The notes under the pieces are model-generated. The model was given only the letters and a program-made list of their open reading frames with translations. It was not told the DNA's origin and did not search any database. The position numbers and the translations under genes are program-made. 64,000 nt of DNA from Candidatus Pacearchaeota archaeon (lineage in GTDB: Archaea > Nanobdellota > Nanobdellia > Pacearchaeales > GW2011-AR1), in NCBI GenBank assembly GCA_050302495.1, contig JBNLBP010000001.1, positions 191,269-255,268 of the forward strand, written 5' to 3'. Below are positions 11,354 to 62,478 of the stretch, one piece after another (positions within the stretch are counted from its first letter, which is position 1; each line of letters opens with the position of its first letter).

Positions 11354-14300
11354 TTAAGAATAAGTTTTTTGTTGTAGGTATTTTTGTTTTGATATTGGGG
11401 ACTCTTCTTTTGGGAGGGATAGAGGCTTATAGCGTTTCTACTCCTAGTTATTCTTTGTATAACAATGCTGGAGGTGTTGGGGGAAGTTTTGCAAGTTTTA
11501 CTCAGCAAGGTTTTGATAGCGAATTATGTTCTGCTGGAACAGATTTTCTTTTACAAATACAACCTTTTGAATGTGAGCCTGCAGTTGTGAGGAGTGATCT
11601 TCTTGAAGAACAAGATGTTACTGTTTTGTGTAAAATTGGAGCTACACAAATAAATCCTTTGATTGATGTTCAAGCTATAAACACTCTAAACATTGTTGGG
11701 GAGTATCCTAGAGAAATAAAGAGTATTGGTTATTTCCCTTCCCAGTCTGCTTTGGGTTATTATGATTTTGATGAAACTCTTACTGATCCTGCTTTGAATA
11801 ATTTGGGTTATGTTGCTATAACCCTTAGACAAAACCCTAATGAAAGTTCTATGCCTGATTTTGTTTCTGGAAATCTAACAGCCAAGATTAATTATGATGT
11901 TAAGAATGCATTTGGCGTTGGTCAGGCTGAATTTTATCTTCCTGTTTTGAATGATGAGGATTATTTTAACAATATAAATCAGTATAGTTTTTGGGAAGGT
12001 AGAGGGTACCTTAGGGCTGATAGTGTTGGCACGGATGATGCCAGTATATCTCTTTATTCTGATGTTTCTTCTGGATCTGCTAGTTTTGGAAACTCTGGAA
12101 AGCAAAGAGTTACTCAAGTTAGATTGAATGGAGGTGAAACTTCTGGTTCGATTTATATTCCTGGTTTTAGCCCTTGTTTGGCTTCAATGAAGTTGAAACT
12201 TAATGGTGTTGAAGATCCAGATACTAGAGCAGAGTTGTTGATTAATACAGATCATGTTGAAATTAATGATAATGGTGATTTCTTAGAAAGTAAGTGTACT
12301 GTAACAGATTTGGACAAGAATGGTTTGAATCAGAAAGTTAGTATTAGGTGTAAGGAAGATGATGGCAGTTCTAGTTTTAATTTATTTTTGTCCCCTAGAG
12401 TGAGAATCTCTATTGATGGAATTGCTAAAGATTATTCTGTTGGAGATTATCTTTATTCTAACAATGGAAGAGGTGTTTATTTGGGTTATATTAGTTCTAA
12501 GGGTGGATCAACAGATGTTGAAAATTTATATGCCGTTTTGGTTTCTTTACCTGAAGAGAAAACTAAGTTAACAGAGGATGAAATTTCAAGTATTGCAATA
12601 CAAATGAATCTGTTGTTTTCGGATACTGAAGGTTCAGGAGCAGCGGTTTTTGATATTGGGGCCGAAATTCTAAAGAAATTCTCAGGGGCTTCAGTTACTC
12701 TTGCCAAATGGACTGTTAGCGGACAAAATATACAAAAAGTTGATTTTAAGACAAATGTTGTTTCCCCTCAATATGATTTTGAAGGAGAAAAAGTTTCCTT
12801 AAGTGGTTTTTCTGAAGGAGAAGATAATGGGGTTGTTGAGGTTGTTCCGGAATCTTATGATTTACAGAAAGCTAATTTAGATGTTGGAGGGATTTTGCCT
12901 AAACAAGTTTACAAAGTTTACAAGGATGGAGAAGATACAGGTTATTATTTTACTGCTAGTGAGAGTGGATCTCCTAAATTTATTTTGAGAAAGAACACTG
13001 TGACGGAGATTTTAGGTGTGGGAGAATTTTATGGAAAGGATTGTTCTTTACATCAGTCTTGTTCTGAGTATATTTTATCAAAGGTAGATAACAGCGTTTC
13101 AGGAGACTTTTTTGAAGGAGTTGTTTCAGGAAGTGTTTTAGTTAATGAGAATAAACTTGTTTTAAACAAACTTGTATTTAATTCAAATTCAAACGAGTTG
13201 TATAAACAATATTATGATAAAGCTATAACTGATTTTGAAACTGTTTTGAATAGTTTTGGAGGGTTAAGTATTGATGGGGCAGATGATACTTATGGTGAGA
13301 GAGCTTTGTATCAGGCTATTAATCTTTCTAAAAGGATCAATCAAAATAAGGCTTTGAAACAACTTTGTCAAGAATTTATTGAGAGCTATCCTGATTCAAT
13401 TAAACCTTTAGATATGTGTGAAGATGACTATTCTTTATCTAACTCGGGTATTTCTAATAGAGATGTTTTAGTTAACGGAGAGATAAAAACAATTTCCTTT
13501 GAAGGTATAAAAGAGCCTACTTACCAAGAATACGGTGCAGAAGTTTTGATAAGAAGTTCGGACGGTAAGATCCAGACTTATCAATTAAGAAAGGATAAAG
13601 TTGTATATTTGAATTTAAAAGATAATGCTTCTGGTTCAGAATATATTAAACTAGATTCGGTGGATGAAGATTCTGCAAGGGTTACGGTTTATGTTTCTGG
13701 AGAAAATCTTGCAAATCAATTATTTTCTTTGAATAGCTATACTTTTGATATTGATGAAACAAGAGGTATTGGAGGAGGGTATAGTTTAACCCTTACTGAT
13801 ACTAACATAGAAAAGGTTGCAAGGGTTTCAGTGGTTCCAAGTTTTAATTATCAGAATTCTGAATCTGAATTTGGATTTAATATTGGCATAGAGAAACGTT
13901 CAATACAACTTTCTGACGAACAGATTGAGAATAGGGTTGATAGTTTAAGTAATGCAATTTCTGATCTTGAAAAGGCTTCAAATGCTCTCAATACGTTTAA
14001 TGAAGCTAGTGCTAAGGTTTGTTTAGCAACAGGAGCTGTTTTAACTGCTAAGAATTTCTTGGCTAACTCGGATGGTAAATCTATAGCGAGACAGAAGGTC
14101 ATGCGTAGTTCTGGAGGGTGGAATGATTTTTGTGCTAGTGAAGTAAGTAAAGGGAATTATATTTCTCTAGATGATTGTTTCCTTGAGAATTCTGATGAGA
14201 TAGATTCTCAAGTTGATGAAGTTTTCAATACAATACAAACTCAGAATGAAAGAATAAAACAACTTGAAGCTGATTCTTTGCAAACAGGAACTTTAACAAA

Positions 14301-17300
14301 TAAGGTTGTTGATCAACAGGAATTTATGAAGGATTATTCTCAGATTGGATCTGATTCTTTAGTGGGCTTGGGTAATACTTTCGTCGATCCTACTGGTAAA
14401 AATGAACCTCTTGAGATTGATGAAATTAAGAATTTGTTAAGTTACCAGGGTTGGGAAAGTGGTATCTATAGCATAGATGATCTTAAAGATATAGAGCTTT
14501 ATGCAACTTTAGTTAAGAGTACAAATGATGCTGAGAGCAAGAAGTCTTACAGCCAAACACTTTACTCTTTGCTTTATGACGTTCAAAATAACGCAGGGAA
14601 TTTTGTAGAAAGAACTTCTTTCTTTGACAAGTATTCTCTAGAGGGTCACCAGGGAGGATTTATTTCTTCAGATGATAAGATAAAGAGAATTCAGGTTTCT
14701 GATTTAAAGACTTGGGCAGATGTTGAAAGTTCATATCCTGGAGGGATGAGTGTTGTTTTACTTCCAAATTCGATTATCTTCCCTGGAAACCCTGCAGATT
14801 ATCTTATTGCGGATAATGAATTGGTTTATCCGGTTGTTGATATAGCTACTAATAGGGAATATCTTTTGGTTTTGAATGATGATTATATTGTTACTAGAAC
14901 ATTCCAGTTAAATCCTTTGAATGGTCAGTTGGTTATGGTTAATGATAAAGTAAACCCTCTGAGTTTAGCTTTTGATAAATATGATGAAGGTTCATATGAG
15001 AATAGTTATAAGAATCCAGAAGTAAGGTATTATGAGGAAGACCCTTACAAAGGTTATCCTGCGATTGTTCCTTTAGATACAAATGATGGTTGGTATGCTG
15101 CAACTAAACCTAAGCTTCCTGTTGGAAGTCAGATTACTGCTTATGATGCTTCAGGTAGATTGAATAGTTTCTGGTTATGTAACGTTGGATCTAATGGTTT
15201 GGAAGAATTTTCTAGTTCTGGTTTAGGAGATGATATTTGCCAACAAATTAATGTGGGGGTTCCTGGAACTGTTTATAATCAATTTGCTGGATTGAGTGAA
15301 AGTAAAACTACAAGGCTTGTAACTGATGCTGTTGATTCGATTGAGAAGGCTCAGAGAGCTTATAAGAATGGAGTTAATTCTGTTAGAATCAACGGTCAGA
15401 ATTACAAAGTTGGAGAACCTGCGGTAGAAACTCCCGCAGTTCAGTGTCAAGATTTCATGTCTCCTAAAGAATGTAATTTATTGTTTAATGTTTGTGATCC
15501 TGTTGTTTGTCCTAGCTCAAGATGTGATTTTGGAGGGGCTTACCCTGTTAAGGATGTTGTTCAGACAGGAATAGTTGGAAGTATTGCTCTCTGTGCACCA
15601 AATTATAAAGAGGGGATAAAGGTTCCGGTTTGTACAACAGGTGTTCAAGCTGGTTTGGATTCATGGATAAGTGTCCAGGAATCATATAGGGATTGTTTGC
15701 AGGAAAATTTGGAGAGTGGAGAAACTATTGGTGTTTGTGACGAGATACATAGTGTTTATGCTTGTGAATTCTTTTGGAGACAATCAATACCTTTGGCTAA
15801 AGTAGCTGTTCCAAAATTAATTGGATTAATTTCAGGAGAGAACACCCGTGGTGGAGGAGAATATCTGGGATTACAGAGTGCATGGGATAATGCAAAAGAT
15901 TCTTTAGACTACTTTAAACAATATTATGCTTCTGAATCTTATAATGCTTTCAAAGTTAGAAGTGTTGATGAAGCTGGAACTGCGGTTTGTAAAAGTTATG
16001 TATCTACGGTTTACCCTTCTAGTGCTGAATTATTAGATAGTTTAACTACTCCACGTTCGCCTCCGCAATTTACAGGAAGCTTTGATGAGATTCCATTTAC
16101 TACCGCAACAAATCCTCCCACCTCACAGTATAAGGTTTATTACCACATTTATTCTGGACAAGATTCTGGAGCTTATTACAGAGTTTATCTTAAGGGTGGA
16201 AGTGGGAGTTTCTATCAAGATAGCGCGCTTAATAGAGTAGTTGATTCCGGTTACGTTTCAGTAGGAGATTATGCTTCAGATACAGTTGACTTTACTGCAC
16301 CTTCAGGATATACCCAATTATGTATTGTTGTAAATAATCAGGAAGAGTGTGGTTTCGGAAAAGTGTCAACTTCTTTTGCAGTTAATTATGTTAATGATTT
16401 GTATTTGCAGGAACAAACTACTTCGGGGGTTACAACAGAAGAAGAATGTGTTTCTGGAAGTGCTAGTTTGTATAGCTTATTGAATCCTAACCTTCAAGAT
16501 GTGGCTGAAGGTTTAATCAACCCTGAGCTGTACCAAAAAGGTATTACAAGAGTTTGTGCTACAAACAGCCCTGGTATTGGAACGGATGCTAAGGATGGGA
16601 CTGAAAATGCAAGATGGAGAAAAGTGGGTTACTGTACAGATACAAACGTTGGTTGTTGGCTAGATACTGATTCCGTTAAAGATGCTATTAAATCCTTAGA
16701 TGTTGAGAATTCTGTTTTAAATGACACCGCTCAGAGTTATCTTGATGATTTGGTAAATTCTGGAGATTATGTTAACAATCAGAATTATAGTCAGACTTTA
16801 AGAGACGTTAAGAAAGAATCTGATTCTTCTAAGAAGATAGAAATAATAAATAATATTTTGGATAAGGTATTCTTTAGTAATCAAAAAGCTGAACTTTATT
16901 TCTTGAGAGGTTTGGCTTATGGAGATCTTTCTGGTTTGGAATTTGGTAAGATTGAACAAATAAAAACAAATAGTGTGGACCTTGGAACAATTGTTGATGA
17001 CCAAGGAAACGTTTGCATCTTGCCTCAAGTTCCTAGTGATATTTCTTCAATTGATGATGCTCGGCAAAGAGTATTGAAAGCTGCAGAAAAATTAGATGGG
17101 GGTTTGGCTTTCTCTGGAGATTATGCGTGCTATAGTGCTGCTGTTTATGTATACCAATATGCAGGGGTTTCTGCTGTTCCTTCTTATGCAGATAAATCTG
17201 GGGCCACCTATACCTTAAAGGATTCAAATTCAAAAGTTACAATTGGCGTAGATAAAACTTCTCAAGGAAGTGTTATTTTCCAAGTTGGAACAGGTTATAA

Positions 17301-19425
17301 TAAGATCGGAGAAGATAACTATGATACTAAACTAGCATCTCTTCAACCTGGAGACCAGTTGGATATTGTTTGGGCCTCTAAATTGCCTCACTCGGTTATA
17401 TTTATTTCTTGGATTAATCCTGCCACAAATGAAGAAACTACTTCTGTTACTGGATATGCTAGAATCTTTGATTGGAATGGTGCAGATTTGAAGATCGATG
17501 AGAAAGATGAAAATGGGCTTGTTTGTGGAGAAGATAATAAGTATGTTAGAACTCTTAATAAGGGTAAAGTTAATGAGGAACAATATTGTAATACTTACAG
17601 ATACACGAATTTGTATTTAACTTCTGATGTTCATCCTGTTTATCTATATAGATCTCCTCAATTAAGTGGCACAACTATTTCTACGGGTACTGGTGGTACG
17701 GGAGTTAGTAGTGTTTTAGCCAAGTTTTCTTCAGGATATTCTTCTCCTGATATTGAATTCCAAGATGGAACTAGTTATAGAAATGTTCACTATAAGTTCC
17801 AAGAGGGAGGTTGGTATTGGTTTAATCCCAAAGATAATTTTTGGTATTCTGTTAGCGATAGTATTGAAGGTAAGGCAGTTTCATTGGAGGTGAATAGACA
17901 AATAATTACTTCTCTTCAAGAACGTAATGGCAACTACATAGAGGGTCTTGGAGTTATTATAAATAATGTTCTTAGTTTCAGTGGGGGTGTTTTGTTTGGT
18001 AGAATTAATTTCATTAGTTCTAGTCCGGATTTGAAAACAGAGAATGTTAATTTGAATAGTGAAGGTATCTTTAAGGTAGATCTTTCTTTTAATGAACAGC
18101 CTTATTACTTTAGATTTAAAGAAGGTGTATGGGAATTTAATCCTACTAGGGGTATTGATCCACGTTATTGGTTTGATGTTTCGGACGTTTCATTTAATAA
18201 AGCTGCTAGTCAGGTTTTGGTTTCAGGTGAAGCTAAGGTTGTAGGTTCAATTCCTTCAGATCCAATACAATCTGTTACCGTGAGCCTTGTTGATAAGACT
18301 TATTTTGAGGGGGCTGCCCTGCTTTATGATTTGTCGGATAATTCAATAATTGAGTCTACACAGGATGTTGATTCTCAAAAATTGGATTCTTGGGAGAGTG
18401 AGAATTTAGGAAGCACCGATTTGGGCAGGTTTACTTCAAAACAAATTTCAATACTTTATGATGCTCCTAGTTGCGTTTATTGTGAGAGTTATCCTGATGA
18501 TTGTGATAGTAATTTATGTGCAGTTATTGGTAAAAAATTAGGCGCTTCTTGTCAGTATTATGCAAAGGGTGCAGATATAAGTGATACTCCTATATACAAT
18601 TGTCGTGCAGGAGAAGGGTACACAGATAGAGAATTAAGATCAATATATGAAGCAACTCAGTGTAATGATTGTGGGTCTGGTTTGGGTAACTTCTGTGGTG
18701 AGACTGAATGCTTAGATATTGGGGAAAGAATTGGTAAGACTTGTGAATATGGGTTCTTGAGTTGTAAAGAAGCACAACCTGCTCAAGACGACACTTCTGA
18801 TATTCCGAATTGGAATACTCTTTCTGCTGAACAAAGGGACGTTTATTCTAGTGCAACACAGTGTAGTGATTGTATAACAAGTATAAGTTCTACAAGTGGC
18901 ACTTCTAATTATTGCGATGCTAATCTTTGCGCATCAATTGGTTACAAATTAGGCAAGAATTGTGTTCAGGAACCAGGCTTGACTAAAACTTGTATTGAGG
19001 GAATTGGTTTAGATAATCTTGATCAACAGTTAGTTGATGCTCTTTATAGAGGTCTGGATGACAATAATAGGGCTGAGATAATGTCCTTGATTGAACAAGG
19101 AGCTGATATCAATGTTAAAGATGATGATGGATGGACTCCTTTGATTTATGCATCTCGTCTTGGACATCTTGACCTTGTAAAATATCTTGTTGAAAATGGT
19201 GCAGATGTTAGTGTTAAAGATGGTATAGAAGGTTGGACCGCTCTTATACATGCCTCTATTAAGGGAGATGTTGACATTGTAAAATATCTTGTTGAAAATG
19301 GTGCAGAGGTTAATACCCAAAGTGATTCTGGAGAAACAGCGTTAGATCGAGCTGTTCAACTTAATAATGTTGATGTTGTTAGTTATTTGCAATCTAAAGG
19401 TGCTAAATCTGGGAGTGAACTTTAG
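11350..19425 (+). CDS. giant (2691 aa) secreted/surface protein with C-terminal Cys-rich modules and ankyrin repeats
   Basis: Uninterrupted 8.1-kb ORF. N-terminal hydrophobic signal/anchor (FVVGIFVLILGTLLLGG). Several Cys-rich blocks, e.g. around 15450-15800 and 18468-19010. The last about 125 aa are 3-4 ankyrin repeats (DGWTPLIYASRLGHLDLVKYLVENGADV; GWTALIHASIKGDVDIVKYLVENGAEV; GETALDRAVQLNNVDVVSYL). Confidence 0.8.
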   Translation: MIKNKFFVVGIFVLILGTLLLGGIEAYSVSTPSYSLYNNAGGVGGSFASFTQQGFDSELCSAGTDFLLQIQPFECEPAVVRSDLLEEQDVTVLCKIGATQINPLIDVQAINTLNIVGEYPREIKSIGYFPSQSALGYYDFDETLTDPALNNLGYVAITLRQNPNESSMPDFVSGNLTAKINYDVKNAFGVGQAEFYLPVLNDEDYFNNINQYSFWEGRGYLRADSVGTDDASISLYSDVSSGSASFGNSGKQRVTQVRLNGGETSGSIYIPGFSPCLASMKLKLNGVEDPDTRAELLINTDHVEINDNGDFLESKCTVTDLDKNGLNQKVSIRCKEDDGSSSFNLFLSPRVRISIDGIAKDYSVGDYLYSNNGRGVYLGYISSKGGSTDVENLYAVLVSLPEEKTKLTEDEISSIAIQMNLLFSDTEGSGAAVFDIGAEILKKFSGASVTLAKWTVSGQNIQKVDFKTNVVSPQYDFEGEKVSLSGFSEGEDNGVVEVVPESYDLQKANLDVGGILPKQVYKVYKDGEDTGYYFTASESGSPKFILRKNTVTEILGVGEFYGKDCSLHQSCSEYILSKVDNSVSGDFFEGVVSGSVLVNENKLVLNKLVFNSNSNELYKQYYDKAITDFETVLNSFGGLSIDGADDTYGERALYQAINLSKRINQNKALKQLCQEFIESYPDSIKPLDMCEDDYSLSNSGISNRDVLVNGEIKTISFEGIKEPTYQEYGAEVLIRSSDGKIQTYQLRKDKVVYLNLKDNASGSEYIKLDSVDEDSARVTVYVSGENLANQLFSLNSYTFDIDETRGIGGGYSLTLTDTNIEKVARVSVVPSFNYQNSESEFGFNIGIEKRSIQLSDEQIENRVDSLSNAISDLEKASNALNTFNEASAKVCLATGAVLTAKNFLANSDGKSIARQKVMRSSGGWNDFCASEVSKGNYISLDDCFLENSDEIDSQVDEVFNTIQTQNERIKQLEADSLQTGTLTNKVVDQQEFMKDYSQIGSDSLVGLGNTFVDPTGKNEPLEIDEIKNLLSYQGWESGIYSIDDLKDIELYATLVKSTNDAESKKSYSQTLYSLLYDVQNNAGNFVERTSFFDKYSLEGHQGGFISSDDKIKRIQVSDLKTWADVESSYPGGMSVVLLPNSIIFPGNPADYLIADNELVYPVVDIATNREYLLVLNDDYIVTRTFQLNPLNGQLVMVNDKVNPLSLAFDKYDEGSYENSYKNPEVRYYEEDPYKGYPAIVPLDTNDGWYAATKPKLPVGSQITAYDASGRLNSFWLCNVGSNGLEEFSSSGLGDDICQQINVGVPGTVYNQFAGLSESKTTRLVTDAVDSIEKAQRAYKNGVNSVRINGQNYKVGEPAVETPAVQCQDFMSPKECNLLFNVCDPVVCPSSRCDFGGAYPVKDVVQTGIVGSIALCAPNYKEGIKVPVCTTGVQAGLDSWISVQESYRDCLQENLESGETIGVCDEIHSVYACEFFWRQSIPLAKVAVPKLIGLISGENTRGGGEYLGLQSAWDNAKDSLDYFKQYYASESYNAFKVRSVDEAGTAVCKSYVSTVYPSSAELLDSLTTPRSPPQFTGSFDEIPFTTATNPPTSQYKVYYHIYSGQDSGAYYRVYLKGGSGSFYQDSALNRVVDSGYVSVGDYASDTVDFTAPSGYTQLCIVVNNQEECGFGKVSTSFAVNYVNDLYLQEQTTSGVTTEEECVSGSASLYSLLNPNLQDVAEGLINPELYQKGITRVCATNSPGIGTDAKDGTENARWRKVGYCTDTNVGCWLDTDSVKDAIKSLDVENSVLNDTAQSYLDDLVNSGDYVNNQNYSQTLRDVKKESDSSKKIEIINNILDKVFFSNQKAELYFLRGLAYGDLSGLEFGKIEQIKTNSVDLGTIVDDQGNVCILPQVPSDISSIDDARQRVLKAAEKLDGGLAFSGDYACYSAAVYVYQYAGVSAVPSYADKSGATYTLKDSNSKVTIGVDKTSQGSVIFQVGTGYNKIGEDNYDTKLASLQPGDQLDIVWASKLPHSVIFISWINPATNEETTSVTGYARIFDWNGADLKIDEKDENGLVCGEDNKYVRTLNKGKVNEEQYCNTYRYTNLYLTSDVHPVYLYRSPQLSGTTISTGTGGTGVSSVLAKFSSGYSSPDIEFQDGTSYRNVHYKFQEGGWYWFNPKDNFWYSVSDSIEGKAVSLEVNRQIITSLQERNGNYIEGLGVIINNVLSFSGGVLFGRINFISSSPDLKTENVNLNSEGIFKVDLSFNEQPYYFRFKEGVWEFNPTRGIDPRYWFDVSDVSFNKAASQVLVSGEAKVVGSIPSDPIQSVTVSLVDKTYFEGAALLYDLSDNSIIESTQDVDSQKLDSWESENLGSTDLGRFTSKQISILYDAPSCVYCESYPDDCDSNLCAVIGKKLGASCQYYAKGADISDTPIYNCRAGEGYTDRELRSIYEATQCNDCGSGLGNFCGETECLDIGERIGKTCEYGFLSCKEAQPAQDDTSDIPNWNTLSAEQRDVYSSATQCSDCITSISSTSGTSNYCDANLCASIGYKLGKNCVQEPGLTKTCIEGIGLDNLDQQLVDALYRGLDDNNRAEIMSLIEQGADINVKDDDGWTPLIYASRLGHLDLVKYLVENGADVSVKDGIEGWTALIHASIKGDVDIVKYLVENGAEVNTQSDSGETALDRAVQLNNVDVVSYLQSKGAKSGSEL
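18468..19010 (+). repeat. three tandem Cys-rich modules within the giant protein (coding repeat)
   Basis: Modules SCVYCESYPDDCDSNLCAVIGKKLGASC / ATQCNDCGSGLGNFCGETECLDIGERIGKTC / ATQCSDCIT...NYCDANLCASIGYKLGKNC share the pattern ATQC-DC...C..LC..IG..LGK.C. Confidence 0.5.
19030..19422 (+). other. ankyrin-repeat region (C-terminus of giant protein)
   Basis: Repeated 33-aa units with the consensus G-TPL--A---GH-D-VK-L---GA-VN. Confidence 0.7.
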
Positions 19426-20132
19426 AAGAAATCTCTTAAATCTATAACCGATTTTCTTATATTTTCAAAGGGAGTTGCTATTTTTGGATTGATCCCTCTG
19501 TATATTTCTCCAGGAGTTTTTATTAGTGCACTTTCGTTTTCTTCAGAGATTTCTATGTTGTTGTTAGCAGGGATTACATAAAAGGGTGTTTTTCCTTCTG
19601 CTTTTTCATCGCTGGTTGTTACTAAAGGATATATGTAATCTGTTTTTAATAGGCTGAACGGTTTTAAGGCCCTTTGGATATTGTCTATGGTGTAAACCCT
19701 TATTGTTGAATCTGATTGGAGGCTAGGATTTTTTGAACGATATCCCAGTATTTCTAGTTCTTGAATAAGGTTGTTTTTGGAAGGTGTTTCTGCCCTTGCT
19801 TTTAAGAAAATGTATTCGTTGTCTGGATTAATGTTTTGTTTGACTAGTTTTTTGTTTTCCTTGTTGAAATCATATATTATGAAAGGGAGCATTTCTTCAT
19901 TATTTGCAGTATCACTTATTTCTATCTTTTGTATAAAATATTTGTTAAAACCTTGAATTTTTAGTTCGCCTATCTCTCCAATCTTTTCATATTTTGGTAT
20001 TGAGATGTTTGCAAGTCCGTTTTCTTGATAAGTTGCTCTTGGTTTTGGATTTTCTTGTATTTTATTTTCTATCGAACAACTTGTTAGAGCTAAGATTGTT
20101 GCTAATCCTCCTAAAATTGTAGCTTTGTTCAT
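19422..20132 (-). CDS. putative secreted lipoprotein
   Basis: N-terminal MNKATILGGLATILALTSCS has a hydrophobic signal plus a lipobox-like L-T-S-C. Convergent with the giant gene; its stop overlaps 19422-19425. Confidence 0.55.
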   Translation of the reverse strand: MNKATILGGLATILALTSCSIENKIQENPKPRATYQENGLANISIPKYEKIGEIGELKIQGFNKYFIQKIEISDTANNEEMLPFIIYDFNKENKKLVKQNINPDNEYIFLKARAETPSKNNLIQELEILGYRSKNPSLQSDSTIRVYTIDNIQRALKPFSLLKTDYIYPLVTTSDEKAEGKTPFYVIPANNNIEISEENESALIKTPGEIYRGINPKIATPFENIRKSVIDLRDFF

Positions 20133-20180: not shown

Positions 20181-20253
20181 AGCGGAGGGTGGGACTCGAA
20201 CCCACGAAAAGCCGGGTTGCAGCCGACCGCAGTAGCCGCTGTGCCACCTCCGC
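20181..20253 (-). tRNA. tRNA-Cys (anticodon GCA)
   Basis: Reverse complement GCGGAGG-TG-GCAC-AGCGGCTA-CTGC-G-GTCGG-CTGCAAC-CCGGC-TTTTC-GTGGG-TTCGAGT-CCCAC-CCTCCGC-T. 73 nt, discriminator U. Confidence 0.85.
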
Positions 20254-20813: not shown

Positions 20814-21551
20814 ATGGAGATTACAGAAGGTCTTTCGGAAATATTTGGAATGTTTGCAGCAGATGGGAATTTGCAGGAGAATCATATTAGTATGTGGGGC
20901 AATATTCATGAAGATAAGGAATACTATGATAGGGTTGTTTGCCCTTTGTTTTCTAAAGTATTTGGAATAAATGTAAATGCACATGAGAAAGAAAGCAATT
21001 CTGTTTATGGGTTTTACATCTGTAGGAAGGAGATAATTAAGATTTTCAAGGATTTTGGTTTTACTCGTAGAAAGACCTATTCGGTAAAAATTCCACATGA
21101 AATTTTATTTTCTAAAGACAAGAACATAATTTCGGCTTTTATAAGGGGTTTTGCTGATTGTGATGGTTGTTTAAATTTTATGAAACGTTATGAAAAAGGA
21201 TATTCTTCTTTTAAGAGAAAATATCATACTTATCCGAGGATTTTTATTGGTGTTGTTTCTAAGCAAATTATTTTTGATTTGAGTTTTTTGTTGGATTTCT
21301 TGAACATTGGCCATTCTGTTCACTTTTCTTCAAAGAAGAAGGTTAATGAGGCAGATGTTTATCGGATTGCTGTTAGGGGTCCAGAAAGAATAAATAAATG
21401 GATGGATTCTATAGGTTTCAATAATTACTCTAAATTTACGAAATATCTTGTCTGGAAAAAACATGGTTTTTGTCCAACCCCTTCTTCTCTTAAACAAAGA
21501 GAATTGATCTTGCAAAATGAATTAATTCCAGAAAGTCTTTATGAAATGTAA
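20814..21551 (+). CDS. LAGLIDADG homing endonuclease-like protein (double motif)
   Basis: Two dodecapeptide-like motifs, IFGMFAADGNL and FIRGFADCDGCL, about 100 aa apart. ATG at 20814. Stop lies 35 nt upstream of the intron-containing tRNA-Leu. Confidence 0.7.
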   Translation: MEITEGLSEIFGMFAADGNLQENHISMWGNIHEDKEYYDRVVCPLFSKVFGINVNAHEKESNSVYGFYICRKEIIKIFKDFGFTRRKTYSVKIPHEILFSKDKNIISAFIRGFADCDGCLNFMKRYEKGYSSFKRKYHTYPRIFIGVVSKQIIFDLSFLLDFLNIGHSVHFSSKKKVNEADVYRIAVRGPERINKWMDSIGFNNYSKFTKYLVWKKHGFCPTPSSLKQRELILQNELIPESLYEM

Positions 21552-21553
21552 AA

Positions 21554-21561
21554 CTTTTAAA
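21554..21561 (+). promoter_or_regulatory. TATA-like box for the intron-containing tRNA
   Basis: CTTTTAAA centred about 28 nt upstream of the tRNA 5' end. Confidence 0.35.
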
Positions 21562-21585
21562 CCCTATTTTATATGATTATAATAT

Positions 21586-21711
21586 GCTCCGGTAACTCAG
21601 CCTGGATAGAGTGCCAGATAAATTGAATAAAATGAGATTTAGGCAAACCTTCTATCCAGTTAAGTCTGGAAAGTAAGCTGGAAGTCGCAGGTTCGAATCC
21701 TGTCCGGGGCA
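21586..21711 (+). tRNA. class-II tRNA, probably tRNA-Leu (anticodon TAA), with an about 41-nt intron at a non-canonical position
   Basis: Acceptor GCTCCGG/CCGGGGC + A, D-arm ACTC-AGCCTGGATA-GAGT (Leu-like AGCCTGG loop), T-arm GCAGG-TTCGAAT-CCTGT. Total 126 nt; a class-II tRNA of about 85 nt would leave an intron of about 41 nt. The only canonical loop reading is U33-UAA-G37 (TTAAG at 21660-21664). This forces the intron (about 21619-21659) to lie after position 32 rather than 37. A 9-bp helix CTGGATAGA (21603-21611) / TCTATCCAG (21651-21659) spans it. Exact junctions unresolved. Confidence 0.6.
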
Positions 21712-21718
21712 TTTATCT

Positions 21719-22627
21719 TTATATCTCAATTGTGTCAAAATCATTTACTATAGAAGAATTCTTGAAATGTTTCTTTGCATTTTTTAATAATTCATCAAGT
21801 CTTGTTTCGTAACGTTGTGAAATATGAGTTAGAATAAGTTTTTGGACATTGGCACGTTTTGCAATTTGTCCTGCTTGTCCTGAAGTCATGTGTTTGTGTT
21901 CCTTTGCAGTTTCTGATTCAGTGTCATCGAAGCTACTTTCGCAAATTAATAGATCAGAGTCTTCTACAAATTTTTCAATTTTCTTGTTGAAAACCGTATC
22001 AATTATGAATGAGATTTTCTTTCCCTTTTCTAAATAGGTGAAATCTTTTGCCTTGTAAGTTTTTCCCTTGACTTTTATGTTCTTTCCATTCTTTAATTCG
22101 GATAAATGCTTTCCGTGAGGAATTTTTGCTTTCTTTAGTTTGTTTTTGTCAATTCTAAGTTTATCTTTTATTACAAAATTATATGCGTTTGTGGGAATTC
22201 CATGTTCCATTATTTCAGATTCTAAGTATAGCTCAGAGTCCTCAAAGAATTTTTGTTTTTTTGTTACTTCTTCTATTTTTGCTTTAAATCTAAAAACGGG
22301 AACGAATATTCTTATGAAGTTTTTTAGATATTCTTTTGTATTCTTTGGACCAAATATTCTTAGTTCTTTATTATATTCGCTTAGAGCTAGGGTTTGGAAT
22401 AATCCGGGGAGACCTAGGACATGATCTCCATGCCAGTGAGTTATTAGAATTTTTGTTAATTTTCCAGGGTTTAGTTTAGCTTTACGGAATTGTCTCTGAG
22501 TTCCTTCTCCACAATCTATTAGAATATTCTCTTTTTTGTATTGAAGAAGTATTGCGGTGTGATTTCGCTTCAAAGTAGGAATGCTTGCAGATGTTCCTAG
22601 AAATGTTATTTTTATTTTCTCTGTCAT
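21719..22627 (-). CDS. rnz: ribonuclease Z (tRNA 3' endonuclease), metallo-beta-lactamase fold
   Basis: ITHWHGDHVLGLPGL (HxHxDH motif) and overall RNase Z profile. Stop lies 8 nt from the tRNA 3' end on the opposite strand. Confidence 0.85.
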   Translation of the reverse strand: MTEKIKITFLGTSASIPTLKRNHTAILLQYKKENILIDCGEGTQRQFRKAKLNPGKLTKILITHWHGDHVLGLPGLFQTLALSEYNKELRIFGPKNTKEYLKNFIRIFVPVFRFKAKIEEVTKKQKFFEDSELYLESEIMEHGIPTNAYNFVIKDKLRIDKNKLKKAKIPHGKHLSELKNGKNIKVKGKTYKAKDFTYLEKGKKISFIIDTVFNKKIEKFVEDSDLLICESSFDDTESETAKEHKHMTSGQAGQIAKRANVQKLILTHISQRYETRLDELLKNAKKHFKNSSIVNDFDTIEI

Positions 22628-25094: not shown

Positions 25095-25178
25095 GCGGAT
25101 ATGCCGGAGTGGTCAAACGGGCGACGTTTAGGGCGTTGTAGCTTAGTGCTTACTTAGGTTCGAATCCTAATATCCGCA
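25095..25178 (+). tRNA. tRNA-Leu (anticodon TAG), class II
   Basis: GCGGATA-TG-CCG-GAGTGGTCAAA-CGG-G-CGACG-TTTAGGG-CGTTG-TAGCTTAGTGCTTAC (variable arm)-TTAGG-TTCGAAT-CCTAA-TATCCGC-A. 84 nt, no intron. Confidence 0.85.
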
Positions 25179-30602: not shown

Positions 30603-30667
30603 TTTTTGTGTTTAATTATAGAATAGTTCTAAAATATTATATTATTTTTTGTTTTGTATTTGTTGTG

Positions 30668-31447
30668 ATGTTTGATATCAATAAGTTGTCTCATGATGAA
30701 AGATTTGCTCTACTTTATGGAATAATGTTGGGAGATGGATGTTTGTCAAAATATGTTACAAAACAAAAAAGAACGATATTTGGCATATCAATCGTTTGTA
30801 ATTACTACGATGATATTCCTTTTATTAAAGAATTTGTAGCTCCAATAATAAATTCTTTGCGATCTGGGATGAAACCTTTGAGAATTATTAGAAGGCCTGA
30901 AAAAGGAACTGTTGAATTGTTCTTCTCTGATAAAAGTCTTTTTTGCAAAATTAATTCTTTAGGATTTCCTATTGGTAAGAAAGGAACAAAGATAATTATT
31001 CCTGGAGAATTCCATAGGAGAGATCTTGTCAAATATGTTATTCAAGGAATTTTTGCTACGGATGGTAGTTTGGTTTTAACAAAAAATCCTAACAAATTTT
31101 ATCCAAGATTGGAGGTCCATATGATTGCTCATGATTTGATAAGACAAATTCATGAATTCTTGATCGAGAATGGTTTTAATGGTAACATGTATGAATGCAA
31201 AAGGAATAAGGATGAGAGGGGATTTATTAAAATCTTCAAAAAGTTTCGTGTGCAGTTTAATGGGAAAAAGAATTTGATATTGTTTTATAAAAATATCGGA
31301 TTTGTTAATCCTAAACAACTGAAAAAATTCCAGGCATTTATGAGATATGATCGGAAATATCTTTCTTCTAAAAAGGAACTGTTTAATCGGGTAATTTTGA
31401 AAGATATGGCTGCACTGAGATTCGAACTCAGGACCTCAAGCTCATGA
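30668..31447 (+). CDS. LAGLIDADG homing endonuclease-like protein (double motif)
   Basis: LLYGIMLGDGCL and VIQGIFATDGSL motifs. First ATG at 30668; the ORF-track start at 30608 is GTG. The 3' end overlaps tRNA-Met on the opposite strand by 41 nt. Confidence 0.65.
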   Translation: MFDINKLSHDERFALLYGIMLGDGCLSKYVTKQKRTIFGISIVCNYYDDIPFIKEFVAPIINSLRSGMKPLRIIRRPEKGTVELFFSDKSLFCKINSLGFPIGKKGTKIIIPGEFHRRDLVKYVIQGIFATDGSLVLTKNPNKFYPRLEVHMIAHDLIRQIHEFLIENGFNGNMYECKRNKDERGFIKIFKKFRVQFNGKKNLILFYKNIGFVNPKQLKKFQAFMRYDRKYLSSKKELFNRVILKDMAALRFELRTSSS

Positions 31448-31479
31448 GACTTGCGCTCTACCAACTGAGCTATGCAGCC
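31407..31479 (-). tRNA. tRNA-Met (anticodon CAT; elongator, or Ile2-type)
   Basis: Reverse complement GGCTGCA-TA-GCTC-AGTTGGTA-GAGC-G-CAAGT-CTCATGA-GCTTG-AGGTC-CTGAG-TTCGAAT-CTCAG-TGCAGCC-A. G1-C72 argues against an initiator. Confidence 0.85.
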
Positions 31480-32744: not shown

Positions 32745-33140
32745 ATGGATGTAAAAGATGAAGATTATTACGGGGATTTGATCTTGGATTTAAATCGAAG
32801 TATGGAGGAAAGAATTCAGGGCGCTTTTCAGCTTGAAAATGCTAAAAAAGAAGAGAATCTTATGAAATTGGTTAAAGGTTTATTTACTGATCCTTCTCCT
32901 ATTGTTCGGCATGAATTTGCCTTTTCTTTGGGTGAAACGGGTAGAGGAGATCTTATTGGGAAATATTTGATGAAATCTGTTGAAGAAGATTATAATTTGT
33001 TTGTGAGGCATGAGGCAATATTGGCCTTATCTACTTTAGGAGATAAAGATTTCATTCCGTTTGTTAAGAAATTTTTAGATGCTCCAGAGAAGGAGATGTC
33101 AGAGAGTGCGGAGATTGCTTTGCAGAGACTTGAGAGCTAG
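32745..33140 (+). CDS. HEAT-repeat protein (PBS-lyase-like repeats)
   Basis: Repeated VRHEFAFSLGETG / VRHEAILALSTLGD units typical of PBS-lyase HEAT repeats. 4-nt overlap with convergent endA. Confidence 0.55.
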   Translation: MDVKDEDYYGDLILDLNRSMEERIQGAFQLENAKKEENLMKLVKGLFTDPSPIVRHEFAFSLGETGRGDLIGKYLMKSVEEDYNLFVRHEAILALSTLGDKDFIPFVKKFLDAPEKEMSESAEIALQRLES

Positions 33141-33661
33141 GTTCTAATCCACCTAATTTCGTAATAAGAAATATCGGATTCTTCATCAACTATTGCAATT
33201 AGTAAGTTCTTTTTTGTGCTATGCGCTACACGGTTTTTTGCAGAGAATTCATGCCATGAAAATTTCTTTGATTCGTGTTCGCAGAAAACAATCCACTTTG
33301 AATGTTGGTTTTTTTGTCCTACTTTCACGCCTTTTGGATACACTCTGAAATCTGCTCCAAATTTTAATGCTGTTTTTACTACATATCCTTTTTCTCTTAA
33401 ATCCTTGAATACAGGATATTTTAGTTGAATTCTTGAATCTATTCTTTTTATTTTGTTGAACAATTCGTTGTGACTTAGCACTTTATTTTTTTGTAACACC
33501 TCAATTTTATTTTTTTCTAAAAGATATAATGCTTCTGATAAAGTATATTGTATTTTTTGTCCAGATTGTTCTCCGAATTGAGATTTCTTTTGTAACGTGA
33601 ATGCTTCTGATTCGTTTGTGGAGATTGTTTCTCCAATTAAGTGTGCTTGAATCTTTTTCAT
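33137..33661 (-). CDS. endA: tRNA-splicing endonuclease (EndA)
   Basis: C-terminal catalytic domain ALKFGADFRVYPKG...HSKWIV (conserved Y-H-K arrangement of archaeal EndA). 174 aa. Confidence 0.8.
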   Translation of the reverse strand: MKKIQAHLIGETISTNESEAFTLQKKSQFGEQSGQKIQYTLSEALYLLEKNKIEVLQKNKVLSHNELFNKIKRIDSRIQLKYPVFKDLREKGYVVKTALKFGADFRVYPKGVKVGQKNQHSKWIVFCEHESKKFSWHEFSAKNRVAHSTKKNLLIAIVDEESDISYYEIRWIRT

Positions 33662-62455: not shown

Positions 62456-62478
62456 AGAAAATTATCTTCAGATTTAAT

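What the first reader, a model, noticed from the sequence alone, without database searches (positions are those of the whole stretch)
20814..21711. Class-II tRNA (Leu-like) with a long intron at a non-canonical position, immediately downstream of a LAGLIDADG gene
The tRNA at 21586-21711 has unambiguous acceptor, D- and T-arms, but 126 nt between its ends. The anticodon region cannot be folded as a contiguous 5-bp stem plus 7-nt loop. The only canonical loop reading is U33-UAA-G37 (TTAAG at 21660-21664). This requires an intron of about 41 nt after position 32 rather than at 37/38. A 9-bp long-range helix, CTGGATAGA at 21603-21611 with TCTATCCAG at 21651-21659, ends exactly at the inferred 3' splice site. 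This may be a relaxed or non-canonical BHB substrate. An alternative reading places a second micro-intron in the variable region, suggested by the direct repeat CTGGAAAG / CTGGAAGTC. The LAGLIDADG ORF 20814-21551 ends 35 nt upstream. This is the most direct place to test the intron-endonuclease link.
Basis: seen in the sequence. Interest (0 to 1): 0.7.

Follow-up and report, generated by a model that had tools for sequence, protein, structure and literature searches.

The report
Two-intron tRNA-Arg(UCU) beside LAGLIDADG gene
The odd 126-nt tRNA is not a leucine-type tRNA with one strange intron but an ordinary arginine tRNA (anticodon UCU) interrupted by two standard archaeal introns, and the neighbouring LAGLIDADG nuclease gene is tied to the tRNA gene itself, not to its introns.

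Summary
The tRNA at 21586-21711 is real (Rfam 42.5 bits). The Leu-like, class-II, single-intron reading is wrong. It is a class-I tRNA-Arg(UCU) with two bulge-helix-bulge (BHB) introns: a 30-nt intron at 21618-21647 (non-canonical 30/31) and a 21-nt intron at 21655-21675 (canonical 37/38). Splicing gives a 75-nt cloverleaf whose anticodon arm is identical to intronless orthologues at the same locus. It is the outer helix of the 30/31 BHB, pairing the D-loop with the anticodon loop plus the start of intron 2. Fifteen orthologues carry a 30/31 intron, and the central 4-bp helix covaries at all four positions. 30/31 introns, multi-intron tRNAs and disrupted tRNAs in DPANN archaea are already described, so this is a new member of a known kind. 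The LAGLIDADG gene lies outside the introns. It adjoins tRNA-Arg(UCU) in all 105 loci with room, with 0-3 introns and on either strand. LAGLIDADG-free syntenic alleles exist. Two paralogues in the window abut tRNA(CAU) and tRNA-Asn(GUU). This tRNA-gene linkage is unexplained and is the more novel lead.

The parts
20814..21551 (+). Free-standing LAGLIDADG protein gene (245 aa, two LAGLIDADG motifs). It is not inside any intron.
   Evidence: Pfam LAGLIDADG_3, 26.3 bits. There are 107 homologues of about 245 aa in Pace-, Woese- and Nanoarchaeota MAGs. D17 and D117 are invariant. The AlphaFold model has pLDDT 93.9, and its best PDB matches are the TliVMA intein endonuclease domain, I-Tsp061I and I-DmoI.
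21554..21561 (+). TATA-like box CTTTTAAA, 25-32 nt upstream of the tRNA. It is the likely promoter of the tRNA itself, inside the 34-nt spacer.
   Evidence: Read from the sequence. TTTWAA starting between -40 and -22 (mostly -35 to -30) occurs in 49 of 82 distinct orthologous upstream regions. That it acts as a promoter is inferred.
21586..21617 (+). Exon 1: tRNA positions 1-30 (acceptor 5' strand, D-arm, N26, first 4 nt of the anticodon stem CCAG).
   Evidence: Rfam alignment, enumeration, orthologues.
21618..21647 (+). Intron 1, 30 nt, non-canonical position 30/31.
   Evidence: This is the only placement that gives a canonical anticodon arm with a BHB: central helix 4/4, inner helix 6 bp, outer helix 10 bp. 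RNAalifold predicts the same structure independently. Fifteen orthologues have an intron at the same site.
21648..21654 (+). Exon 2, 7 nt: C31 C32 U33 U34 C35 U36 A37, holding anticodon UCU.
   Evidence: The intronless L004 orthologue has GAGTG-CCAGC-CTTCTAA-GCTGG-AAGTC, identical to the spliced window sequence.
21655..21675 (+). Intron 2, 21 nt, canonical position 37/38, with an internal hairpin (U)CCAG/CUGG(A).
   Evidence: BHB central helix 3/4 (one C35.A mismatch), inner helix 4 bp, outer helix 5 bp once intron 1 is removed. ARAGORN on the intron-1-deleted sequence reports tRNA-Arg(tct) with intron i(38,21).
21676..21711 (+). Exon 3: positions 38-73 (A38, GCUGG, variable loop AAGUC, T-arm, acceptor 3' strand, discriminator A73). 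No CCA is encoded.
21602..21611 (+). 5' strand of the outer helix of BHB-1 (D-loop and 3' strand of the D-stem, CUGGAUAGAG). It pairs with 21650-21659.
   Evidence: MFE fold, RNAalifold, and orthologue table with 4-12 bp and compensatory changes.
21650..21659 (+). 3' strand of the outer helix of BHB-1 (U33-A37 plus the first 5 nt of intron 2, UUCUAUCCAG).
   Evidence: The helix extends at least 3 bp into intron 2 in 12/13 genes with both introns, against 0/23 genes with only the 37/38 intron (Fisher p = 1e-8).
21612..21615 (+). Central 4-bp helix of BHB-1, 5' strand UGCC (tRNA positions 25-28). It pairs with GGCA at 21642-21645. The 5' bulge is AG^A at 21616-21618.
   Evidence: Paired in 15/15 orthologues, with two or three pair types at each of the four positions.
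21642..21649 (+). Central helix 3' strand GGCA (21642-21645) and 3' bulge AA^C(C) (21646-21649). Cleavage is predicted between 21647 and 21648.
   Evidence: The 3' bulge is AA^CC in 13/15 orthologues. The cleavage position is inferred from the BHB rule, calibrated on the canonical introns of the window.
33137..33661 (-). tRNA-splicing endonuclease EndA (174 aa, N- and C-terminal domains), the presumed enzyme for both introns.
   Evidence: Pfam tRNA_int_endo 97.5 bits plus the N-terminal domain. TIGR00324 endA 111 bits. It aligns over its full length to M. jannaschii alpha4 EndA 1a79 and to the N. equitans alpha subunit 3iey_A.
21719..22627 (-). RNase Z (tRNA 3'-end processing), convergent with the tRNA.
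   Evidence: Pfam Lactamase_B_2 and the tRNase Z domain. The adjacency is kept in only 19/72 related loci, so it is ordinary local synteny.

Best explanation
The locus encodes the cell's tRNA-Arg(UCU), the decoder of AGA. AGA is the dominant Arg codon in this 33% G+C DPANN (Pacearchaeota-like) genome. The gene is in three exons split by two archaeal BHB introns.

**Intron 1 (21618-21647, position 30/31).** It is presented to the splicing endonuclease EndA in a non-cloverleaf fold of the precursor:
- a 4-bp central helix, tRNA 25-28 UGCC with intron GGCA;
- a 3-nt bulge AG^A on the 5' side;
- an AA^C(C) bulge on the 3' side;
- an A/U-rich inner hairpin;
- a 10-bp outer helix in which the D-loop and D-stem pair with the anticodon loop and the first 5 nt of intron 2.

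**Intron 2 (21655-21675, position 37/38).** It has a near-canonical BHB. Its outer helix is the anticodon stem, which is only continuous after intron 1 is removed. Its inner hairpin uses the same UCCAG that pairs with the D-loop.

**Inferred order of events.** The two BHBs are mutually exclusive, so splicing is probably ordered: intron 1 first, refolding, then intron 2. Ligation would give a 75-nt class-I tRNA, and CCA is added afterwards.

**What is shown and what is inferred.** Shown by computation: the exon structure, the BHB geometry, its covariation and the orthology. Inferred: the exact cleavage phosphates, the order of splicing and the enzyme.

**The LAGLIDADG gene.** It is an independent free-standing gene and plays no part in splicing these introns.
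For: **The tRNA and its class**
- Rfam finds the tRNA and aligns it as class I, with a 60-nt insertion in the anticodon arm.

**Exon structure**
- I enumerated all 1- and 2-intron decompositions. Only 30/31 (30 nt) plus 37/38 (21 nt) has BHB motifs at both introns, and it gives CCAGC-CUUCUAA-GCUGG.
- ARAGORN calls the spliced 75-mer tRNA-Arg(tct). On the intron-1-deleted form it calls Arg(tct) with a 21-nt intron at position 38.

**Orthologues**
- At the same position, next to the same LAGLIDADG gene, sit intronless tRNA-Arg(UCU) genes. The L004 anticodon arm is identical to the predicted spliced product.
- L116 carries the same arm.
- The 87 distinct orthologues comprise 27 intronless, 24 with 37/38 only, 17 with an upstream intron only, and 19 with both.

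**BHB of intron 1**
- In 15 orthologues with a 30/31 intron the central helix is paired in all cells. Pair types are UA/CG, GC/AU, CG/AU/GC and CG/UA/UG.
- The 3' bulge is AA^CC in 13/15, and an inner helix is always present although its sequence is free.
- RNAalifold on the three closest precursors predicts the same outer helix, 4-nt bulge, 4-bp helix, 3-nt bulge and inner helix. The MFE fold of the window precursor gives the same outer and central helices.
- The outer helix extends into intron 2 in 12/13 against 0/23 genes.

**Supporting context**
- An EndA gene is in the window.
- AGA makes up 112 of 180 Arg codons in the eight long ORFs sampled.
- 30/31 is a described non-canonical site (PMC4090602). 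DPANN genomes with alpha4-type EndA are described as rich in disrupted tRNA genes (PMC5829648).
Against: - There are no RNA data, so the splice junctions, the order of splicing and expression itself are all inferred.
- The long outer helix needs a 4-nt 3' bulge (AACC) rather than the strict 3 nt. A strict 3-nt register is possible but leaves only a 3-bp outer helix.
- The central helix of BHB-2 has one C.A mismatch in the window. It is 4/4 in the twin orthologues L049 and L102.
- EndA here looks like the alpha4 type, classically considered strict. Whether it tolerates these deviations is untested.
- The orthologue sequences are phylogenetically related, so the Fisher test overstates independence.
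- The MFE fold of the unmodified mature sequence does not return a cloverleaf. This is common for tRNAs and is uninformative.
Confidence: 0.9

Rival explanations
1. This is a class-II, Leu-like tRNA with anticodon UAA. It has one intron of about 41 nt after position 32 and a 17-nt variable region, and it is spliced through a relaxed BHB whose 9-bp helix ends at the 3' splice site.
For: TTAAG can be read as U33-UAA-G37. CCAGA/UCUGG can pair as a 5-bp stem. ARAGORN with introns allowed on an artificial intron-2-deleted sequence calls a Leu.
Against: - All class-II solutions shown in the (truncated) enumeration output need two introns, and none has a BHB: central helix 3/4 or less (4/4 in two isolated solutions), with inner and outer helices absent or of 3 bp or less.
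- The 17-nt 'variable arm' has no stem. The D-stem is 4 bp with U8-A9, as in class I, whereas the window's true tRNA-Leu(UAG) at 25095 has a 3-bp D-stem and a stemmed variable arm.
- Every orthologue at this locus is tRNA-Arg(UCU), and many are intronless.
- Rfam aligns it as class I.
Confidence: 0.01
2. The locus is a decaying tRNA pseudogene. The insertions are junk rather than spliceable introns.
For: Default ARAGORN does not find it. The Rfam score is lower than for the other tRNAs in the window.
Against: - All stems are intact, and both insertions sit in BHB motifs that covary across orthologues.
- The same two-intron architecture is kept in L049 and L102 despite many substitutions.
- It occupies the conserved tRNA-Arg(UCU) slot, and AGA is the main Arg codon.
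- A TATA-like box lies at -31 to -25.
Confidence: 0.03
3. About the LAGLIDADG neighbour: it is a free-standing homing endonuclease that homes to the tRNA gene or its immediate flank. It therefore always travels with, and stays glued to, its cognate tRNA gene. Intron-bearing tRNA alleles may hitch-hike with it by co-conversion.
For: - It has the monomeric double-motif LAGLIDADG endonuclease fold, with both motif aspartates invariant.
- Its closest sequence relatives are intein endonuclease domains.
- It adjoins tRNA-Arg(UCU) in 105/105 loci with room, although the wider synteny is kept in only 19/72.
- The tRNA lies on either strand.
- LAGLIDADG-free syntenic alleles exist (L116, L117), and L035 carries a frameshifted copy.
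- Paralogous subfamilies are each tied to another tRNA: CAU in the window plus 4/4 sampled contexts, Asn(GUU), and Cys(GCA).
- Phage T4 SegB sets a precedent among tRNA genes (PMC2330249).
Against: - No target site or cleavage activity is known.
- Copies are overwhelmingly intact and 45-70% identical over deep divergences. This looks more like vertical inheritance under purifying selection than a homing cycle.
- 27/87 adjacent tRNA genes are intronless, so introns cannot be the general immunity mechanism.
- No relatives were found on viral contigs.
- Only two LAGLIDADG-free alleles were sampled.
Confidence: 0.35
4. About the LAGLIDADG neighbour: it is a domesticated host protein, either a DNA-binding regulator of its tRNA gene or an RNA chaperone or maturase-like factor for its cognate pre-tRNA. 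Alternatively the adjacency is only inherited gene order without function.
For: - The family is highly conserved in length and sequence across more than 100 genomes.
- WhiA and the bI3 maturase are among the structural matches, showing that LAGLIDADG folds have been domesticated before.
- In some Woesearchaeota the tRNA starts 0-7 nt after the ORF, which suggests co-transcription.
Against: - The invariant catalytic-type aspartates are not needed for a pure binding role.
- The protein is dispensable in close relatives (L116, L117).
- Adjacency survives strand inversions and loss of all other synteny. Plain inherited order does not explain that.
- The tRNA partner is often intronless, which argues against a role in splicing.
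Confidence: 0.3

Closest known systems
[quoted passage not shown] 2007/2008, cited from memory; review PMC4090602)
   Same: - Protein-spliced introns are defined by a bulge-helix-bulge motif.
- One intron is at 37/38 and one is in the anticodon stem.
- 30/31 is a listed non-canonical site (PMC4090602).
- The BHB of a non-canonical intron needs a non-cloverleaf fold that pairs exon sequences.
- EndA is encoded in the genome.
   Different: - The host is a Pacearchaeota-like DPANN archaeon with an alpha4-like EndA.
- The outer helix of the 30/31 BHB is extended by the 5' end of the second intron. This extension co-occurs with the two-intron state (12/13 against 0/23) and implies an ordered, mutually exclusive two-step splicing. 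I did not find that detail described in the papers I could read.
Disrupted tRNA genes of DPANN archaea associated with alpha4-type EndA carrying the L3 loop (Kaneta et al. 2018, PMC5829648)
   Same: That paper reports that DPANN lineages, including a Pacearchaeota and a Woesearchaeota genome, have increased tRNA gene disruption. It also reports that standard predictors miss some of their tRNAs. Here default ARAGORN missed this gene.
   Different: The paper gives genome-level statistics. This specific tRNA-Arg(UCU) architecture and its population of 0-3-intron alleles are not described there. I only saw that the window EndA has a Tyr-His loop 2 residues longer than in M. jannaschii and 4 shorter than in N. 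equitans alpha. I did not establish the presence of L3.
Archaeal intron-encoded LAGLIDADG homing endonucleases (I-DmoI, I-Tsp061I, I-PorI) in BHB introns of rRNA genes
   Same: The protein has the same fold (TM-score normalised to target 0.79 for I-Tsp061I and 0.71 for I-DmoI). It is monomeric with two LAGLIDADG motifs and acidic residues, and it occurs in archaea that use BHB splicing.
   Different: Those enzymes are encoded inside the intron they mobilise. Here the ORF lies outside the tRNA, 34 nt upstream, and the two introns (30 and 21 nt) are far too small to encode anything. The gene is present next to intronless alleles as well.
Free-standing homing endonucleases in phage tRNA gene clusters (T4 SegB, GIY-YIG; PMC2330249)
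   Same: A free-standing nuclease gene is embedded among or next to tRNA genes. For SegB, cleavage in the tRNA gene region drives preferential inheritance of that region.
   Different: The nuclease family differs (LAGLIDADG rather than GIY-YIG) and the setting is cellular archaeal genomes rather than phage. Here there is one paralogue per specific tRNA gene, and no activity has been shown.

Membership tests
Archaeal BHB (EndA-spliced) tRNA intron | Exon-intron junctions lie in two roughly 3-nt bulges on opposite strands, separated by a 4-bp helix (hBHBh'). | tested here: met
   Intron 1 has a central helix of 4/4, a 5' bulge of 3 nt, a 3' bulge of 3 or 4 nt depending on register, an inner helix of 6 bp and an outer helix of 3 or 10 bp. 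Intron 2 has a central helix of 3/4 (one C.A mismatch), 3-nt bulges, an inner helix of 4 bp and an outer helix of 5 bp after intron 1 is removed.
Archaeal BHB (EndA-spliced) tRNA intron | The helices of the motif are maintained by covariation in related sequences. | tested here: met
   The central helix of the 30/31 intron is paired in 15/15 orthologues, with double changes at all four positions. The inner helix is always present with unrelated sequences. RNAalifold agrees.
Archaeal BHB (EndA-spliced) tRNA intron | Removing the introns restores a canonical cloverleaf with a 7-nt anticodon loop. | tested here: met
   The 75-nt product is called tRNA-Arg(tct) by ARAGORN. Its anticodon arm is identical to the intronless orthologues L004 and L116.
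Archaeal BHB (EndA-spliced) tRNA intron | A splicing endonuclease is encoded by the organism. | tested here: met
   EndA lies at 33137-33661(-). Pfam PF01974 97.5 bits, TIGR00324 111 bits.
Archaeal BHB (EndA-spliced) tRNA intron | Cleavage at the predicted phosphates and ligation (RtcB) are observed. | not testable with these tools
   This needs RNA sequencing or an in vitro assay. I did not look for RtcB.
tRNA-Arg(UCU) | Anticodon UCU in a C32-U33-NNN-A37-A38 loop, and orthology to annotated or recognisable tRNA-Arg(UCU) genes. | tested here: met
   The loop is CUUCUAA after splicing. There are 87 distinct orthologues with the same loop at the same genomic slot. A20 is present in the D-loop; it is an Arg identity element in E. 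coli (from memory) and was not tested for archaea.
Class II tRNA (Leu/Ser type) | A long variable arm that forms a stem-loop, a 3-bp D-stem, and a Leu or Ser anticodon. | tested here: not met
   The 17-nt segment has no stem, and the D-stem is 4 bp. Compare the true tRNA-Leu(UAG) at 25095-25178. Rfam aligns a 5-nt variable loop. No class-II decomposition has a BHB.
LAGLIDADG homing endonuclease | Two LAGLIDADG motifs with conserved acidic residues and the alpha-beta-beta-alpha-beta-beta-alpha double-domain fold. | tested here: met
   The motifs are GMFAADGNL (D17) and FIRGFADCDGCL (D117), and both Asp are invariant in 25 sequences. The model has pLDDT 93.9. Foldseek gives E = 8e-14 to the TliVMA intein endonuclease and 2e-10 to I-Tsp061I.
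LAGLIDADG homing endonuclease | Encoded within the intron or intein that it mobilises. | tested here: not met
   The ORF 20814-21551 ends 34 nt upstream of exon 1, and the introns are 30 and 21 nt. It is free-standing.
LAGLIDADG homing endonuclease | Site-specific DNA cleavage of endonuclease-free alleles, with a patchy presence/absence distribution. | tested here: inconclusive
   Two LAGLIDADG-free syntenic alleles (L116, L117) and one frameshifted copy (L035) were found. Cleavage activity cannot be tested here.

The most novel reading that the evidence does not exclude
The free-standing LAGLIDADG genes of these DPANN archaea form a family of tRNA-gene-associated nucleases. Each subfamily is physically locked to one specific tRNA gene: Arg-UCU, CAU, Asn-GUU or Cys-GCA. 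They would act as homing endonucleases, or derivatives of them, that recognise the tRNA gene or its flank. This would be a cellular, archaeal counterpart of phage SegB. Their DNA breaks and co-conversion tracts could help explain the rapid turnover seen at these loci, meaning the inversions and the 0-3-intron alleles.
Probability: 0.35. Interest if true: 0.75.

Novelty: new member of a known kind. Interest (0 to 1): 0.45.

Why it matters
- **Annotation.** This is the decoder of AGA, the most used Arg codon in this genome. Default ARAGORN misses it, and a sequence-only reading takes it for Leu. Genomes of this lineage will look as if they lack tRNA-Arg(UCU).
- **RNA biology.** The 87 orthologous alleles with 0, 1, 2 or 3 introns at one locus form a natural series for studying BHB intron gain and loss. 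In the two-intron alleles the second intron's 5' end has been recruited into the first intron's BHB. This predicts an ordered, refolding-dependent splicing pathway that can be tested with the EndA encoded 11 kb away.
- **Mobile-element biology.** The strict, intron-independent linkage between LAGLIDADG paralogues and particular tRNA genes is unexplained. I found no description of it in the searchable literature.

Tried and rejected
- **Default ARAGORN** misses the gene. It also mislabels two intron-containing tRNAs in the window.
- **Exact-sequence look-ups** of the window's RNase Z and LAGLIDADG proteins found no contig on record.
- **Class-II/Leu decompositions** were enumerated and rejected for lack of any BHB.
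- **My first automatic parser** (strict 5-bp stems) failed or gave spurious two-intron solutions for about 25 orthologues with a 28/29-type intron or a stem mismatch. I re-parsed the 30/31 class by structural position and classified the rest only as upstream or downstream insertions.
- **Five loci that seemed to lack the tRNA.** Four were read by eye, and all four have tRNA-Arg(UCU). L105 was not read; it is assumed from its apparent identity to L023 (same 45.49% match and same tRNA coordinates).
- **MFE folding** of the spliced and half-spliced RNAs does not give a cloverleaf. I did not use it as evidence.
- **The 268-aa ORF next to the tRNA in L117** is not a LAGLIDADG protein.
- **IMG/VR viral contigs** hold no relative of the LAGLIDADG protein.
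- **Sugahara et al. 2007** could not be read, so the precedent for stepwise multi-intron removal is cited from memory only.
- **An intron-as-immunity idea** (introns protecting the tRNA gene from the adjacent nuclease) was considered. It is weakened because 27/87 adjacent genes are intronless.
Full report
**1. The observation**

Rfam's tRNA model matches exactly 21586-21711(+), 126 nt, at 42.5 bits against a gathering score of 29. Default ARAGORN does not report it.

The sequence shows:
- a perfect acceptor stem, GCUCCGG/CCGGGGC, with a U3.G70 pair;
- U8-A9;
- a 4-bp D-stem ACUC/GAGU with D-loop AGCCUGGAUA;
- a T-arm GCAGG-UUCGAAU-CCUGU;
- discriminator A73.

The anticodon region is not contiguous.

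A G.U pair extends the helix to 10 bp. On shuffling alone a perfect inverted repeat of 9 bp or more appears in 1.2-1.9% of trials, so its significance rests on the comparative evidence below.

ORF 20814-21551 is a LAGLIDADG_3 protein, and its stop codon is 34 nt before the tRNA. EndA exists at 33137-33661 but on the minus strand.

**2. What the tRNA is**

Rfam aligns the gene as class I. The anticodon stem is CCAG (21614-21617) with CUGG (21678-21681), followed by a 5-nt variable loop AAGUC. Sixty nt sit where nine should be.

I calibrated the BHB cleavage rule on two canonical introns elsewhere in the window. Each splice site lies after the second nucleotide of a bulge that follows a strand of a 4-bp helix. 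The two reference genes are tRNA-Thr(UGU) at 6673-6762 and tRNA-Asn(GUU) at 62479-62566.

I then enumerated every way of removing one or two introns from the 68-nt middle segment that leaves a 5-bp stem and a Y-U-NNN-R-N loop.
- Only one solution has BHB motifs at both introns. Intron 1 is 21618-21647 (30 nt, between positions 30 and 31) and intron 2 is 21655-21675 (21 nt, 37/38; its boundary can slide by sequence identity, but the BHB picks 37/38).
- The product is ...GAGU-G-CCAGC-CUUCUAA-GCUGG-AAGUC..., a 75-nt tRNA-Arg(UCU).
- ARAGORN calls the spliced sequence tRNA-Arg(tct). On the intron-1-deleted sequence it calls Arg(tct) with a 21-nt intron at position 38.

**3. Comparative proof**

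The LAGLIDADG protein has 107 homologues in Pacearchaeota, Woesearchaeota and Nanoarchaeota MAGs. I fetched 115 loci around them.

Next to the gene there is always a tRNA with loop CUUCUAA. In L001 and L003 it is intronless. In L004 it is intronless and its anticodon arm (GAGTG CCAGC CTTCTAA GCTGG AAGTC) is identical to my predicted spliced product.

Among 87 distinct orthologous genes:

| Intron state | Genes |
|---|---|
| Intronless | 27 |
| Only a 37/38 intron | 24 |
| Only an intron in the 5' strand of the anticodon stem (27-31) | 17 |
| Both | 19 |

L017 and L089 add introns in the T-arm and D-arm. L049 and L102 have the same two introns as the window.

**4.

I analysed fifteen orthologues with an intron at 30/31 by structural position.
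- **Central helix.** It pairs tRNA positions 25-28 with the 3' end of the intron, and it is paired in all of them. The sequences covary: UGCC/GGCA, CACU/AGUG, CACU/GGUG, CGAC/GUCG, CGGC/GCCG, CAGC/GCUG and CAGU/GCUG. That gives two or three pair types at each of the four positions.
- **Bulges.** The 5' bulge is NG^N. The 3' bulge is AA^CC in 13/15.
- **Inner helix.** It is always present, 1-8 bp long, with unrelated sequences.
- **Outer helix.** It pairs the 3' half of the D-arm (UAGAG and upstream) with U33-A37 and beyond, over 4-12 bp.

The first 5 bp of the outer helix come free with this tRNA, because UAGAG is complementary to UUCUA. Anything beyond that must come from intron 2.
- In 12 of 13 genes with both introns, the first 3-7 nt of intron 2 (UCC.., UUC..) extend the helix.
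- In 0 of 23 genes with only the 37/38 intron do they extend it by 3 bp or more (Fisher p = 1e-8). The sequences are related, so this is not a strict probability.
- There are compensatory changes, for example C17-G in the window against U17-A in L019.

RNAalifold on the window, L049 and L102 predicts exactly this structure: outer helix, 4-nt bulge, 4-bp helix, 3-nt bulge, inner helix. The MFE fold of the window precursor has the same outer and central helices.

**5. Mechanism**

Shown by computation: the exon structure, the two BHBs, the covariation and an EndA gene.

Inferred:
- UCCAG (21655-21659) pairs either with the D-loop CUGGA (as the outer helix of BHB-1) or with CUGGA at 21666-21670 (as the inner hairpin of BHB-2).
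- The outer helix of BHB-2 is the anticodon stem, which is split by intron 1.
- The two BHBs therefore cannot coexist.
- The likely pathway is: intron 1 is cut and ligated, the D-arm refolds, BHB-2 forms (central helix CUUC/AAAG with one C.A mismatch; 4/4 in L049 and L102), and then intron 2 is removed.

The tRNA has its own TATA-like box, CTTTTAAA, at -31 to -25. A similar box is found in 49/82 orthologous upstream regions.

EndA here aligns over its full length to the M. jannaschii alpha4 enzyme.

One caveat applies. The long outer helix implies a 4-nt 3' bulge, while the strict 3-nt register leaves only 3 bp of outer helix.

**6. Comparison with what is known**

- Non-canonical BHB introns at 30/31, and tRNA genes with two or three introns, are described for Crenarchaeota and Nanoarchaeota (PMC4090602).
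- DPANN lineages, including Pacearchaeota and Woesearchaeota, with alpha4-type EndA are reported to have many disrupted tRNA genes, some missed by predictors (PMC5829648).
- Hence this tRNA is a new member of a known kind.
- The recruitment of intron 2 into BHB-1 is a detail I did not find described. The key paper on multi-intron prediction could not be read.

**7. The LAGLIDADG gene**

It is a bona fide monomeric double-motif LAGLIDADG fold.
- The model has pLDDT 93.9.
- The best PDB matches are the TliVMA intein endonuclease domain, I-Tsp061I and I-DmoI.
- Both motif aspartates are invariant.
- By sequence it resembles intein endonuclease domains.

It lies outside the introns, so it is not an intron-encoded enzyme.

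The adjacency to tRNA-Arg(UCU) is striking.
- My script found the tRNA within 101 nt of the gene (median about 12 nt) in 100 loci.
- Ten more loci simply end at the gene.
- Of the remaining five, four were read by eye and also have the tRNA; the fifth, L105, was not read and is assumed from its apparent identity to L023.
- I therefore count 105 of 105 loci with room.
- The tRNA is downstream on the same strand in 55 loci, downstream on the opposite strand in 35, and upstream on the opposite strand in 6.
- By contrast, RNase Z is retained downstream in only 19 of 72 loci with room.
- The adjacency is independent of intron content.

Syntenic alleles without the gene exist.
- L116 has RNase Z, then an intronless tRNA-Arg(UCU), then tRNA-Cys, with no LAGLIDADG gene.
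- L117 also lacks it.
- L035 carries a frameshifted copy.

The pattern generalises to other tRNA genes.
- The window holds two more paralogues. ORF 30608-31447(+) has its 3' end overlapping the intronless tRNA(CAU) at 31407-31479(-). ORF 62548-63609(-) has its 3' end overlapping tRNA-Asn(GUU) at 62479-66(+).
- L001 has a paralogue abutting tRNA-Cys(GCA).
- For the CAU subfamily (369 or more homologues), all four independent contexts sampled have a convergent tRNA(CAU) starting at or overlapping the ORF's stop codon. Two of these tRNAs carry a 37/38 intron.

The link is therefore LAGLIDADG gene to tRNA gene, not LAGLIDADG to intron. Whether these are active free-standing homing endonucleases (compare T4 SegB among tRNA genes, PMC2330249) or domesticated factors is open. 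I found no paper in the held library describing this.

**8. Verdict**

- The tRNA is a new member of a known kind.
- The tRNA-linked LAGLIDADG family is the most novel lead and deserves its own follow-up.

Noticed in passing
window 30608-31447 (+) and 31407-31479 (-): A second LAGLIDADG paralogue (279-aa ORF; E = 1.9e-12 to the profile of the first family). The last ~40 nt of the ORF (stop codon included) overlap, antisense, the 3' part of an intronless tRNA(CAU). In 4/4 independent homologous contexts (L118, L121, L122, L123) a convergent tRNA(CAU) starts at or overlaps the ORF's stop codon. Two of these tRNAs carry a 37/38 intron that ARAGORN misreads as Ser.
   Followed up: partly
window 62548-63609 (-) and 62479-62566 (+): A third LAGLIDADG paralogue (353-aa ORF; E = 1.2e-10). 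Its 3' end overlaps the 3' end of tRNA-Asn(GUU), which carries a 14-nt intron at 37/38. Three of the eight tRNA genes in the window therefore have a LAGLIDADG gene against them.
   Followed up: partly
L001 84-944 (+) and 859-930 (-): A 286-aa paralogue of the LAGLIDADG family (hhalign probability 99.9%) abuts tRNA-Cys(GCA). The same locus also has the Arg(UCU)-linked copy.
   Followed up: partly
L116 3487-3638; L117 4260-4336: These are syntenic loci (TFIIB, S8e, LSM, RNase Z) in close relatives. They have an intronless tRNA-Arg(UCU) but no LAGLIDADG gene. In L116 tRNA-Arg and tRNA-Cys are 2 nt apart. This is a presence/absence polymorphism of the LAGLIDADG gene.
   Followed up: partly
window 6673-6762 (-) and 62478-62567 (+): Default ARAGORN mislabels two intron-containing tRNAs. 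The first is tRNA-Thr(UGU) with an 18-nt intron at 37/38, called Leu(taa). The second is tRNA-Asn(GUU) with a 14-nt intron, called Thr(tgt). Both have textbook BHB motifs.
   Followed up: yes
window 25095-25178 (+): ARAGORN and my stem scan find tRNA-Leu(UAG), with perfect stems and a stemmed variable arm. It is absent from the Rfam gathering-threshold list for the window.
   Followed up: no
L089 1206-1387; L017 2067-2203: These tRNA-Arg(UCU) orthologues have introns outside the anticodon arm. L089 has one in the D-arm, one at 37/38 and one in the T-loop. L017 has one at 30/31 and one in the T-arm. The neighbouring tRNA-Cys(GCA) genes also carry 0-2 introns (for example L004 at 133 nt, and L007 and L021 at 141 nt). 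Intron turnover is therefore general in these lineages.
   Followed up: partly
L035 1501-2011: The LAGLIDADG gene next to tRNA-Arg(UCU) is split into two overlapping reading frames. It is probably a frameshifted, decaying copy.
   Followed up: no
window 11350-19425 (+): A giant 2691-aa ORF with an N-terminal signal or transmembrane segment, Cys-rich repeats and C-terminal ankyrin-like repeats. It ends about 750 nt before tRNA-Cys at 20181-20253, with the minus-strand ORF 19422-20132 in between.
   Followed up: no
loci L015, L018, L020, L021, L026 and other Woesearchaeota-type loci: In many loci the tRNA-Arg(UCU) 5' end starts 0-7 nt after the end of the LAGLIDADG ORF. No separate promoter is visible there, which suggests co-transcription and release of the tRNA by RNase P and RNase Z. 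These genes usually have an intron at 28/29 instead of 30/31.
   Followed up: no
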